From Naegleria gruberi (Eukaryota): 1,321 nucleotides of DNA. A model generated the notes under the pieces. That model was not told the origin of the DNA, searched no databases, and worked only from the letters and a program-made list of their open reading frames with translations. Numbering within the stretch: the stretch's first letter is position 1; every line of letters begins with the position of its first letter. This document shows, piece by piece, positions 119 to 1,321 of the stretch. A program made the position numbers and the translations under genes. The stretch is from the NCBI GenBank assembly GCA_000004985.1, contig GG739447.1, one strand, 5' to 3'.

Positions 119-472
119 ATGATTCTCACCAGGTCCCTATCACAAAGCTCTTTTGCCTCCTGTCCAACTAATTCAGCCTCCAACTCTGATATGGCTCTTT
201 TCGCGTTAGCATCAGCACTGCGTAGTATTGACGGAATGGAAAAAACAACTTTATTTTCAACTATAGAGGAACTTACGCCCAAAATACAAAAATGCAATCT
301 ACTATGGGCAAAAAATATTTTTAATCTATTTAAAAAATCTGATGGTGACCTCTACTCTGCAATTATGAGTGCCGAGTTAAAGGACATTATAGAACAATTA
401 CCTCAAGTTTATAAATCCGCACTTCTTAACCAAACACAAGGATTTTTTAAAAATAACTTTATTAATAATTAA
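119..472 (+). CDS. Intact 117-aa ATG-initiated ORF that is the N-terminal segment of the actin relic; weak actin-like similarity to residues ~1-94; probably not a functional actin
   Basis: The ORF track gives it as MILTRS...FINN*. It is in frame and ordered with actin landmarks: MDS start; KAGFA ~ KALLP at 144-158; SNSDMALFA ~ NGSGMCKAGFA; ALASALRSIDG ~ APRAVFPSIVG; WAKN ~ MGQKD; KSDGD ~ DSYVGD; IIEQLP ~ ILTLRYP; FINN ~ FYNE. The TAA at 470-472 falls where actin has Leu (TTG), and the same frame continues colinear (VIP ~ VAP, KTQYQIL ~ KMTQIM) to the TGA at 557-559. Amino-acid identity is low. A TATA-like AT stretch precedes the ATG. Confidence 0.3.
   Translation: MILTRSLSQSSFASCPTNSASNSDMALFALASALRSIDGMEKTTLFSTIEELTPKIQKCNLLWAKNIFNLFKKSDGDLYSAIMSAELKDIIEQLPQVYKSALLNQTQGFFKNNFINN
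144..205 (+). repeat. Local scrambled duplication of short units gctctttt(g/c)(c/g)c and cctcc(tgtc)caact
   Basis: aagctcttttgcc at 145-157 matches ggctcttttcgcg at 193-205 (gctctttt exact at 147-154 and 194-201). gcctcctgtccaact at 155-169 matches gcctccaactc at 176-186. Both copies resemble the actin GSGMCKAGFAG region. Confidence 0.4.
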
Positions 473-510
473 GTAATCCCGTATAAAATTTTTGATGGTC
501 AGTTTGTGAA

Positions 511-555
511 AACTCAATATCAAATTTTGAAAAATGAACAATTTGATATTGAGTT
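511..555. repeat. Perfect 16-bp inverted repeat (hairpin): arms 511-526 aactcaatatcaaatt and 540-555 aatttgatattgagtt, with a 13-nt loop ttgaaaaatgaac
   Basis: Checked base by base: 511-526 is the exact reverse complement of 540-555. The flanking pairs 510/556 and 527/539 do not match. The hairpin lies inside the KTQYQIL..EQFDIEL segment of the actin relic. Confidence 0.85.
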
Positions 556-580
556 GTGATCCGAATTAAATTTATCGAGG

Positions 581-596
581 ATCAAATTGATTTGAT
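581..596. repeat. Short palindrome atcaaat-tg-atttgat (7-bp arms, 2-nt spacer)
   Basis: 581-587 atcaaat is the reverse complement of 590-596 atttgat. It is part of the TCAAATT motif cluster. Confidence 0.6.
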
Positions 597-774
597 AGAG
601 AGTTTTGATCCAATAGCTGAATCAAAATTCGACTCTGAAAAATTCCCTGATTCATTGCTACTGAAAACATGCTGAATAACAACTTTGAATCCTTACTCTT
701 GTGGATAGAATAAGAGCTTTATTCAAGATTAAGATTACAATCCTACAGCACAGTATGAAGATGAATGATAATTA

Positions 775-892
775 GACACACTTACCTATACGTATTTTGA
801 AACCTTCTCAGTTTCAGCTATGTATGTTGCTATTCAAGCTGTCTTGTCCTTGTATGCTTCTAGAACTGGTTTTGGACTCTGGTAATGGTGTT
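775..892 (+). other. Best-preserved actin block, equivalent to actin residues ~117-159 including the phosphate-2 loop LDSGDGV, with an internal frameshift
   Basis: The frame-1 reading is open from 775 to 882 and translates as DTLTYTYFETFSVSAMYVAIQAVLSLYASRTGFGLW*. Nucleotides 817-861, gctatgtatgttgctattcaagctgtcttgtccttgtatgcttct, encode AMYVAIQAVLSLYAS exactly as in canonical actin, with yeast-preferred codons. Frame 2 from 872 reads LDSGNGV. Getting from ...YAS to LDSG needs a frame change because GGT, ACT and ATTGT are missing relative to GCTTCTGGTAGAACTACTGGTATTGTTTTGGAC. Confidence 0.8.
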
Positions 893-962
893 TTGCTTGC
901 TGACTTTGACGACAAGTTGTACCCTTCATTGTTGCACAAATACCACTCTCAATTGCTTAAAT

Positions 963-1008
963 GTAAGTATCATGATTAATTAATTATTAAGACTTGTTCT
1001 CTTTTCAG
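963..1008 (+). other. Intron-like unit of 46 nt: GTAAGT donor ... polypyrimidine cttgttctcttttCAG acceptor
   Basis: gtaagt at 963-968, ctcttttcag at 999-1008. Removing it does not restore an actin-colinear frame: aaa t|aa gives a stop. The internal gacttg and cag align with actin DF and Q codons, so this may be a chance or relic motif. Confidence 0.25.
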
Positions 1009-1154
1009 AAATACATCTCTTCAATAATAACACACTGTAAGTAGTAAATGAGAATATCATCATGACAAATATATCAGAATTTAAACGATCTATTTTAATT
1101 GGTAAAGTGTAGATTTATTTCAATCTGAATGTAGGTTTTCCTGTTCAATTTCCT

Positions 1155-1179
1155 AATAACAATAATATAACAATAACAG
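1155..1179. repeat. Low-complexity AAT/AAC simple repeat (taacaataa at 1157-1165 and 1168-1176)
   Basis: aataacaataatataacaataacag. aataataaca at 1024-1033 is a related motif. Confidence 0.5.
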
Positions 1180-1213
1180 TAAATTGACCATGATAAATGT
1201 GTGGAACTCTTTT

Positions 1214-1275
1214 GTAAGTATAATATCACTCACCATTTAATAATCAAAGTGGTCGCAGCAGTTTAAGTATTTCAG
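1214..1275 (+). other. Intron-like unit of 62 nt: GTAAGT donor ... tatttCAG acceptor
   Basis: gtaagt at 1214-1219, tatttcag at 1268-1275. This conflicts with the actin alignment, which puts the ESGP (aaagtggtc) and KCF (aagtatttc) remnants inside it. An alternative 36-nt in-frame insertion (1214-1249) keeps MW..KYF in one frame. GTAAG also occurs at 1037, 1306 and 1311. Confidence 0.25.
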
Positions 1276-1321
1276 ATTATGTAACAATGTAATGACTTGA
1301 TTCATGTAAGGTAAGTTTATC

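What the first reader, a model, noticed from the sequence alone, without database searches (positions are those of the whole stretch)
119..1276. A complete but heavily eroded actin-family gene, readable only as colinear islands
More than 15 short actin-like islands occur in the correct order and at roughly the correct spacing, from MDS at 119 to a KCF*-like end at 1265-1276. The overall length (1158 nt) is close to an actin CDS (~1128 nt). The homologous frame nevertheless switches (2, 1, 2, 0, 2), there are in-frame stops (for example 470-472, 883-885 in frame 1, and 1110-1112), and about 130 nt and 150 nt of actin are missing near 1025-1056 and 1110-1184. This looks like a dead actin paralog or relic with yeast-like codon usage, not a live gene. 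The ORF caller's three ORFs are fragments of this single entity.
Basis: partly seen in the sequence, partly recalled or inferred. Interest (0 to 1): 0.55.

Follow-up and report, generated by a model that had tools for sequence, protein, structure and literature searches.

The report
One 98-base dead actin fragment
The window does not hold a worn-out complete actin gene: only 98 bases (796-893) derive from actin, they are broken by small deletions, and they sit in AT-rich, repeat-bearing DNA of an unidentified eukaryote, which makes this an ordinary gene-fragment relic.

Summary
Only one actin island is real. Window 796-893 matches actin residues 124-159 (FETFSVSAMYVAIQAVLSLYAS / LDSGNGV). It carries 11 missing bases, including a frameshift inside the invariant SGRTTG loop. 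Evidence: tblastn E 5e-9, PDB actins E 4e-7, blastn E 1e-19 against real actin genes.

Compared with 95 real actin loci, all 86 DNA hits fall within 796-893, and neither edge extends beyond chance. With the core masked, the "15+ colinear islands" score the same as dinucleotide shuffles (486 vs 480 +/- 19) and the reverse complement (465). The claimed MDS start reads MIL, and the claimed KCF* end reads KYFR with no stop.

The 5' third of the claimed gene (81-402, most of ORF1) is a 322-bp block 100% identical to an unrelated metagenome contig. There it lies about 160 bp from a fragment of a DIRS-like retrotransposon RT gene. Both flanks are unrelated. Splicing at the enriched GTAAGT sites yields no intact ORF.

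Best reading: a dead, captured or left-over actin fragment in non-coding, repeat-rich eukaryotic DNA. Interest is low. A minor open lead is the shared block, whose minus-strand ends look like intron ends.

The parts
796..893 (+). Actin-derived DNA fragment (relic), equivalent to actin codons 124-160. It reads in frame +1 for 796-870 and frame +2 for 872-892. Relative to real actins, 11 bases are missing (about 3+3+5, or 6+5 as blastn places them) within ASGRTTGIV.
   Evidence: protein level; 86 blastn hits to 95 real actin loci, all confined to 796-893; the best is 78.5% with 11 gap positions, and up to 93.6% over the ungapped 815-861. One search gives base-level alignments; neither edge extends beyond chance.
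883..885 (+). TAA stop that ends the +1 reading of the actin fragment after the frameshift.
81..402 (.). 322-bp block, 100% identical to ENA metagenome contig L001 (283-604), with unrelated flanks on both sides. It is a repeated or mobile unit, not actin. Read on the minus strand its ends are G|GTAATTG ... TTTTTAG|A, which look like intron ends.
   Evidence: identity; flank alignments at shuffle level; local blastn; no special fold (z 0.69).
119..472 (+). ORF1 (117 aa), an orphan ORF. Its first 95 codons lie in the shared block. Not actin-like; coding status doubtful.
   Evidence: no Pfam family; exhaustive phmmer finds only the identical-block protein plus a low-complexity bacterial repeat protein; period-3 signal not significant (p about 0.13).
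511..555 (.). Perfect 16-bp inverted repeat (511-526 / 540-555) with a 13-nt loop. It is part of a three-copy 16-mer cluster.
   Evidence: I2, D3. DNA fold z -4.76, 0/200 shuffles as stable; three copies against 0.07 expected.
589..604 (+). Third, degenerate copy of the 16-mer (3 mismatches).
963..1008 (+). Best intron-like unit: GTAAGT ... TTTTCAG, 46 nt. Further + strand GTAAGT sites are at 1037, 1214 and 1311; minus-strand sites are at 276-271 and 785-780.
   Evidence: 6 GTAAGT against 0.59 expected, 0/200 shuffles reach 6.; using these sites does not create a longer ORF.

Best explanation
The window is mostly non-coding, AT-rich (31% GC) nuclear DNA from an unidentified eukaryote. It contains one short, dead piece of an actin gene.

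The piece is 98 nt long (796-893). It corresponds to actin codons 124-160: the end of FETF, the hinge helix AMYVAIQAVLSLYAS and the second phosphate-binding loop DSGDGV. It has lost 11 bases inside the invariant SGRTTGIV stretch, so it shifts frame and runs into a stop. It cannot encode an actin fold and has no function as actin.

Inferred, not shown: the piece was copied out of an actin gene or its mRNA and inserted ectopically, either captured by a transposable element or used as filler at a repaired DNA break, and then decayed by small deletions.

- a 322-bp repeated block (81-402) that also occurs next to a truncated DIRS-like retrotransposon on another contig;
- a small hairpin and repeat cluster (511-604);
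- an AT-rich tail with intron-like GTAAGT motifs.

The many small actin-like "islands" are what any sequence gives when di- and tripeptide matches may be picked from three frames in order.
For: Shown:
- A single significant actin HSP pair. Pfam Actin matches only profile positions 118-153 of 410. PDB actins match residues 124-159 only.
- All 86 blastn hits against 95 real actin loci are confined to 796-893, and those spanning the frameshift need the same 11 gap positions.
- The edges do not extend: 49/200 shuffles do as well upstream and 196/200 downstream.
- The colinear chain outside the core equals shuffles and the reverse complement. The best extra candidate is not significant.
- 81-402 is 100% identical to L001, with unrelated flanks. 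L001 also carries a truncated RT fragment (aa 60-100 of about 600) of a DIRS-like element, E 4e-14.
- No spliced ORF emerges and the period-3 signal is weak throughout.
- Eukaryotic origin is supported by GTAAGT enrichment, the actin fragment itself and the eukaryotic retroelement on the sister contig.
- The sequence is reliable, because 322 nt agree perfectly with an independent Illumina/MEGAHIT contig. The deletions in the island are therefore not read errors.
Against: - The parent actin gene and the source genome were not found. The closest actins are only about 78% identical (about 88% ignoring gaps), so how and when the fragment arose is inferred.
- No target-site duplication, terminal repeats or other capture hallmark flank 796-893 (read directly).
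- Only two contigs from this genome are available. Assembly chimerism at the block junctions cannot be excluded without reads.
- The GTAAGT enrichment suggests that transcribed, spliced sequence is present or was present, and that is not explained.
Confidence: 0.68

Rival explanations
1. One reading: a complete actin paralogue of about 1158 nt (119-1276), so eroded that only colinear islands remain.
For: - One true island lies on the + strand.
- A weak, correctly ordered candidate sits at 1196-1270, against actin 338-362 (E 0.43 if TAA is read as Gln).
- The ATG at 119 lies 677 nt upstream of the FETF codon. From my own recollection, not checked here, this is close to the spacing in S. cerevisiae ACT1 with its intron of about 309 nt.
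Against: - The chain score outside the core equals shuffles and the reverse complement.
- The candidate at 1196-1270 is matched by 6-37% of shuffles and is not seen by Pfam.
- No DNA similarity to 95 actin loci exists outside 796-893.
- Neutral decay would erode a gene evenly. Here 98 nt remain about 88% identical and the rest shows nothing.
- 81-402 is a block shared at 100% identity with an unrelated locus.
- There is no GTATGT or TACTAAC between 119 and 440.
- The claimed MDS and KCF* ends are misreadings.
Confidence: 0.03
2. The actin-derived piece has been exonised. It is part of an exon (about 776-962) of a transcribed, spliced gene or non-coding RNA whose short introns begin at the GTAAGT sites downstream.
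For: - GTAAGT occurs four times on the + strand just downstream, against about 0.3 expected per strand.
- There is a textbook 46-nt GTAAGT...TTTTCAG unit at 963-1008.
- 894-962 has a marginal period-3 signal (p 0.05) and higher GC.
- A 67-codon open frame (+2, 776-976) runs through the region.
Against: - Splicing at these donors never lengthens the ORF (62 against 67 codons).
- The first junction creates a TAA immediately.
- The frame +2 peptide has no homologue among 5.8 billion clusters.
- No transcript data are available.
Confidence: 0.12
3. Assembly artefact: the contig is a chimera that joins reads from different loci or organisms through AT-rich repeats, so the patchwork is not biological.
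For: - There are sharp changes of content at 80/81, 402/403, 795/796 and 893/894.
- The contig is short and single, from an unknown assembler.
- The only relative is another short metagenome contig.
Against: - A chimera would carry an intact actin segment. This one has three deletions inside an invariant motif, so it is a genuinely degenerate copy.
- No repeat long enough to bridge k-mers of about 127 is visible at the junctions.
- The 322-bp block is reproduced exactly in an independent assembly.
Confidence: 0.1
4. Germline (micronuclear) DNA of a ciliate, in which short gene segments (MDSs) from different genes are interleaved with eliminated sequences. The actin piece and the 322-bp block would be such segments.
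For: - The window is a patchwork of 100-300-bp blocks with sharp borders.
- The DNA is AT-rich.
- Actin I is the classic scrambled gene of stichotrich ciliates (my own knowledge).
- Frame +2 is open from 2 to 556 if TAA/TAG are read as Gln.
Against: - A functional MDS must match the macronuclear gene exactly. Bases missing from SGRTTG cannot be restored by excision.
- TGA stops still interrupt the actin frame upstream.
- No pointer repeats are evident at the borders and there are no telomeric repeats.
- The related DIRS-like elements read through in the standard code.
Confidence: 0.05

Closest known systems
Gene-fragment pseudogenes, i.e. transduplicated gene pieces such as those carried by Helitrons and Pack-MULEs, or filler DNA at repaired breaks (my own knowledge)
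   Same: A short piece (about 100 nt) of a highly expressed host gene lies out of context in repeat-rich DNA. It is disabled by indels and sits near other truncated fragments. The sister contig holds a 120-nt RT fragment.
   Different: No transposon hallmarks were found around the piece: no TIRs, no TSD, no Helitron 5'-TC/CTRR-3' ends. The donor gene is unknown and the copy number is unknown.
Conventional actin (Pfam PF00022) genes and full-length actin pseudogenes
   Same: 98 nt are clearly homologous to actin codons 124-160, with codon choices (TTG, GCT, TCT, AGA, GGT) like those of highly expressed actin genes.
   Different: About 91% of the gene is absent. The phosphate-1 and adenosine motifs are absent. 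There is no ORF, and the score is below Pfam's gathering threshold.
Introner-like mobile introns, i.e. near-identical introns inserted in unrelated genes of some algae, fungi and other eukaryotes (my own knowledge)
   Same: The 322-bp block occurs at 100% identity in two unrelated contexts. On the minus strand it begins GTAATT one base in and ends TTTTTAG one base before its end.
   Different: Only two copies are known. The flanks show no coding continuity once the block is removed. No TSD or TIR is present and no RNA evidence exists. The GT/AG ends have roughly a 1-5% chance of occurring by accident, by my own estimate allowing for offsets and both strands.
DIRS-like tyrosine-recombinase retrotransposons
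   Same: The sister contig L001 starts with an RT fragment 73-78% identical in protein to elements that carry RT plus a Phage_integrase-type ORF. This marks the genome as eukaryotic and repeat-rich.
   Different: No DIRS-derived sequence is detectable in the window itself.

Membership tests
Actin family gene or complete actin pseudogene (PF00022) | Similarity to actin along most of the roughly 375-residue length, colinear and above chance. | tested here: not met
   Only residues 124-159 match. The chain outside the core equals shuffles. Against 95 actin loci, DNA hits fall only in 796-893.
Actin family gene or complete actin pseudogene (PF00022) | Score at or above Pfam's gathering threshold (27 bits). 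| tested here: not met
   The best score is 25.3 bits for the hand-repaired peptide. In whole-frame or extended contexts it is 12.5-16.8 bits.
Actin family gene or complete actin pseudogene (PF00022) | The nucleotide-binding motifs: phosphate-1 (DNGSG), phosphate-2 (DSGDGV) and the adenosine loop (GGTT). | tested here: not met
   Only phosphate-2 is present, as LDSGNGV, and the adjoining SGRTTG is reduced to S-RT-G. No match to the other motifs exceeds chance.
Actin family gene or complete actin pseudogene (PF00022) | An open reading frame, directly or after splicing. | tested here: not met
   There is a frameshift at about 870/872 and a TAA at 883-885. Spliced models give no longer ORF.
Gene-fragment pseudogene (relic of a gene piece) | Significant nucleotide homology to a functional gene family over a limited, sharply bounded stretch. 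| tested here: met
   blastn E 1e-19, confined to 796-893 in all 86 hits. The edges are not extendable.
Gene-fragment pseudogene (relic of a gene piece) | Disabling lesions relative to the functional family. | tested here: met
   There are 11 gap positions inside an invariant motif, a frameshift and a premature stop.
Gene-fragment pseudogene (relic of a gene piece) | An identifiable parent gene in the same genome. | not testable with these tools
   The source genome was not found. There was no match in plasmids, phages, IMG/VR, GTDB genomes or JGI metagenomes. The closest actins are about 78% identical and come from other organisms.
Introner-like mobile intron (for block 81-402) | Many near-identical copies in unrelated loci. 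| tested here: inconclusive
   Two copies at 100% identity with unrelated flanks. No further copies turned up in any searchable collection.
Introner-like mobile intron (for block 81-402) | Copies bounded by GT...AG in the sense of a host gene and removed by splicing. | tested here: inconclusive
   The minus-strand ends read G|GTAATTG ... TTTTTAG|A. In the frame I read by eye, removing the block does not join open frames in the window or in L001. Splicing cannot be tested without RNA.
Scrambled or micronuclear ciliate actin segment (MDS) | The segment is identical to part of a functional macronuclear gene and is flanked by pointer repeats. | tested here: not met
   The segment lacks 11 bases of an invariant motif. 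No direct repeats were found at its borders.
UvrB/Mfd interaction domain (for 553-630) | Significant similarity to UvrB or Mfd proteins. | tested here: not met
   Pfam gives E 0.0028-0.059, below threshold. No UvrB or Mfd appears among PDB hits at E <= 10, and there is no hit in 5.8 billion clusters. The region is a hairpin and repeat cluster.

The most novel reading that the evidence does not exclude
The 322-bp block (81-402) may be a mobile intron, or another mobile unit with splice-site ends. It recently inserted at two unrelated places in an unsampled AT-rich eukaryote. In that genome, short pieces of host genes (actin) and of retroelements (DIRS-like RT) are shuffled into patchworks. The window would then catch intron gain or gene-fragment shuffling in progress.
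Probability: 0.08. Interest if true: 0.5.

Novelty: new member of a known kind. Interest (0 to 1): 0.1.

Why it matters
It matters little biologically. Short dead fragments of highly expressed genes are common in repeat-rich eukaryotic DNA.

The useful result is methodological. Reading "colinear islands" across three frames by eye generates a full-length ghost gene from any sequence. A shuffle control removes all of it here except one true 98-nt fragment.

The small residual interest lies in the exactly shared 322-bp block with intron-like ends, and in the fact that this eukaryote is essentially absent from the searchable collections.

Tried and rejected
1. Full-length eroded actin. Rejected by chaining against shuffles and the reverse complement, restricted-space blastp, Pfam on candidate peptides and blastn against 95 actin loci.
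2. Alternative genetic codes (TAA/TAG = Gln, TGA = Trp/Cys). These do not repair the frameshift or remove the upstream TGA, and the 1196-1270 candidate stays non-significant. In one search, tblastn's -subject mode ignored the code switch, so the test was redone.
3. Extension of the island upstream (NPKANREKMTQI-like at 739-775, across a 19-nt insert) and downstream (DLTDYLMK-like at 896-916). Both sit in roughly the right position but are not above shuffles.
4. A UvrB/Mfd-like second gene fragment at 553-630. Rejected.
5. A spliced ORF through the GTAAGT donors. None found.
6. ORF1 as a real conserved protein. No homologues; P0002 is a low-complexity match.
7. Homology between the flanks of the window and L001, which would indicate diverged paralogues. 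All alignments are at chance.
8. DIRS-derived sequence in the window. None.
9. The yeast ACT1 intron-spacing coincidence. No GTATGT or TACTAAC signals.
10. Source hunting. There was no match in plasmids or phages, IMG/VR, GTDB genomes or JGI metagenomes for the block, and no exact-protein look-up succeeded. All other ORF pieces found nothing in 5.8 billion clusters. No papers cite the sample accessions.
11. RNA genes and structure. Rfam gave only a sub-threshold snoRNA-like hit at 999-1071 (26.7 against 50 bits). There are no tRNAs, and the block's fold is unremarkable.
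Full report
WHAT WAS CLAIMED. It concluded that the window holds a complete but heavily eroded actin gene.

WHAT THE SEQUENCE SHOWS. The window is 1321 bases at 31% GC. A local tblastn was run with yeast ACT1 and human beta-actin as queries. The search gives one significant match. Window 775-879 in frame +1 matches actin 117-151 (E 5e-9), with identity concentrated in FETFSVSAMYVAIQAVLSLYAS. It is followed directly by 866-892 in frame +2, which reads LVLDSGNGV (actin 151-159). 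Every other HSP has an E-value between 0.2 and 76, and they fall as often on the minus strand as on the plus strand. Pfam sees actin profile positions 118-153 of 410 and nothing else in any of the six frames. PDB actins match residues 124-159 only.

The claimed ends are misreadings. 119-127 is ATG ATT CTC (MIL). 1265-1276 is AAG TAT TTC AGA (KYFR), with no stop.

TESTING THE COLINEAR ISLANDS. I chained ungapped BLOSUM62 segments (score 11 or more) in colinear order across the three forward frames. It yields a 36-38-segment "complete actin" spanning residues 17-371.
- With the core island masked, the score is 486. The 100 dinucleotide shuffles give 480 +/- 19 (36/100 as good or better) and the reverse complement gives 465.
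- With a penalty on spacing, the score is 418, against 409 +/- 21 for shuffles and 414 for the reverse complement.
- The single best extra candidate is 1196-1270, NVWNSFVSIISLTI**SKWSQQFKY against [25 protein letters not shown]. It was tested in a search space biased in its favour: 3' flank only, + strand only, C-terminal half of actin only, with the standard or the ciliate code. It is still equalled by 32/500 to 186/500 shuffles, and Pfam does not see it.
- The 5' flank is worse than most shuffles.

DNA-LEVEL BOUNDARIES. A codon-degenerate scan of JGI metagenomes for MYVAIQAVLSLYA, restricted to TTR-Leu and TCN-Ser codons, returned 95 real actin loci.
- blastn of the whole window against them gives 86 hits, all within 796-893. 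None touches any other part of the window.
- The full-length alignments need the same 11 gap positions. They turn GCT TCT GGT AGA ACT ACT GGT ATT GTT TTG GAC into GCT TCT AGA ACT GGT T TTG GAC. That removes G, T and IV from ASGRTTGIVLD and shifts the frame.
- Ungapped identity reaches 93.6% over 815-861 (L005).
- Attempts to extend the homology failed: 49/200 shuffles do as well upstream (700-795) and 196/200 downstream (894-1010).
- A neutrally decaying whole gene would lose similarity evenly. Here 98 nt remain about 88% identical, ignoring gaps, and the rest shows none. This is therefore a fragment, not a worn whole gene.
- The nearest actins read FETFSVPAMYV. They are intronless, protist-type genes at 40-44% GC. 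They share the unusual Ser of FETFS with the window but are not the parent.

WHAT THE REST OF THE "GENE" IS.
(a) 81-402 includes the first 95 codons of ORF1 (119-472). It is 100% identical to 283-604 of a 769-bp ENA metagenome contig, L001 (ERZ929261, run ERR1078381). Both flanks of the block are unrelated in the two contigs, in either orientation, at shuffle level. L001 begins with a fragment covering aa 60-100 of a roughly 600-aa reverse transcriptase (E 4e-14). Its relatives sit in elements that carry an RT ORF followed by a Phage_integrase-type ORF, which is the layout of DIRS-like retrotransposons. ORF1 has no other homologue among 1.84 billion representative proteins (the second hit is a low-complexity bacterial repeat protein). 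It also has no significant period-3 signal.
(b) 511-555 is a perfect 16-bp hairpin (DNA fold z -4.76; 0/200 shuffles as stable). A third copy of the 16-mer lies at 589-604, giving three copies against 0.07 expected. The weak UvrB_inter Pfam hit read across this region is spurious: no UvrB or Mfd turns up in the PDB at E <= 10.
(c) The 3' third is 24-26% GC.
(d) GTAAGT occurs six times in the whole window against 0.59 expected, and 0/200 shuffles reach six. Four copies are on the + strand in the 3' third and two are on the - strand further 5'. There is one textbook 46-nt GTAAGT...TTTTCAG unit at 963-1008. Splicing at these sites never produces a longer ORF than the unspliced sequence (62 against 67 codons). 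The refutation condition named in the finding, a spliced intact gene, is therefore not met.
(e) None of the remaining ORF pieces has any relative among 5.8 billion protein clusters.

ORIGIN. The window itself could not be located. There was no match in PLSDB plasmids, INPHARED phages, IMG/VR, GTDB genomes or JGI metagenomes, or by exact-protein look-up. The sample accessions appear in no searchable paper. A eukaryotic nuclear origin is inferred from the actin fragment, the splice-donor enrichment and the eukaryotic retroelement on the sister contig.

INTERPRETATION. The best-supported reading (confidence about 0.68) is a non-functional fragment of an actin gene or cDNA lying in repeat-rich, non-coding DNA.
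- What is shown: its extent, its lesions, its isolation, and the repeat nature of the neighbouring block.
- What is inferred: how it got there (transposon-mediated capture or break-repair filler, then small deletions).

Rivals:
- Exonisation into a spliced transcript (0.12). It is supported only by the donor motifs and a marginal period-3 signal at 894-962.
- Assembly chimera (0.10). It is weakened because the actin piece is itself degenerate and the block is reproduced exactly in an independent assembly.
- Ciliate micronuclear patchwork (0.05). It is weakened because missing bases cannot be restored by excision.

A coincidence considered and dismissed: the ATG at 119 is 677 nt upstream of the FETF codon. 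By my recollection this is nearly the spacing in S. cerevisiae ACT1 with its intron. However, there is no GTATGT or TACTAAC in between, the interval contains the shared block, and there is no similarity.

RESIDUAL LEAD. Read on the minus strand, the shared block begins G|GTAATTG and ends TTTTTAG|A. This is what a mobile (introner-like) intron would look like. With only two copies, no coding continuity across its removal, no TSD or TIR and no RNA data, this stays a low-probability lead (about 0.08). By my own estimate, the chance of GT/AG ends occurring by accident, given the offsets and both strands allowed, is of the order of 1-5%.

VERDICT. It is an ordinary gene-fragment relic, and interest is low (0.10).

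Noticed in passing
window 81-402; L001 283-604: A 322-bp block is 100% identical between the window and an ENA metagenome contig, with unrelated flanks on both sides. Its minus-strand ends read G|GTAATTG ... TTTTTAG|A, which look like intron ends. It could be a mobile intron or another repeat unit.
   Followed up: partly
window 963, 1037, 1214, 1311 (+ strand); 271-276, 780-785 (- strand): GTAAGT occurs 6 times against 0.59 expected (0/200 shuffles reach 6). Three of the + strand copies share the longer form TGTAAGTA. Using them as splice donors gives no ORF, so the enrichment is unexplained.
   Followed up: partly
window 511-555 and 589-604: There is a perfect 16-bp inverted repeat with a 13-nt loop (DNA fold z -4.76), plus a third degenerate copy 49 nt downstream and an overlapping palindrome at 557-584. 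This may be a small transposon end or a protein-binding repeat. No match in IMG/VR.
   Followed up: partly
L001 3-122: The sister contig starts with a truncated reverse-transcriptase fragment (aa 60-100 of about 600) of a DIRS-like tyrosine-recombinase retrotransposon. Similarity stops abruptly, much as it does for the actin fragment in the window.
   Followed up: yes
window 132-218, minus strand: This is the GC-richest part of the window (41-44%). On the minus strand it reads as a clean 29-codon stretch, ADANAKRAISELEAELVGQEAKELCDRDL, bounded by a CAG acceptor-like site (about 219) and a GTGAGA donor-like site (131-126). A 58-nt GTAAGT...CAG unit lies just upstream (276-219). The real coding strand of the shared block may be the minus strand, with ORF1 as its antisense shadow.
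   Followed up: no
window 999-1071, minus strand: A sub-threshold Rfam hit to a C/D-box snoRNA family (RF00533; 26.7 against 50 bits; E 0.021). It is probably chance in AT-rich sequence.
   Followed up: no
L047 and L086 (JGI metagenome contigs): These loci carry a divergent actin paralogue with GRNTG in place of GRTTG, VPVESGYALHHAMLRIDLAGR, and a C-terminus ...HRKCL. It is the closest DNA match to the window's fragment. Organism unknown.
   Followed up: no
window 775-787 and 1309-1321: A 13-nt inverted pair (GACACACTTACCT / AGGTAAGTTTATC, 85% complementary) brackets the actin fragment and everything downstream to the contig end. It may be chance, or the two arms of an element.
   Followed up: no
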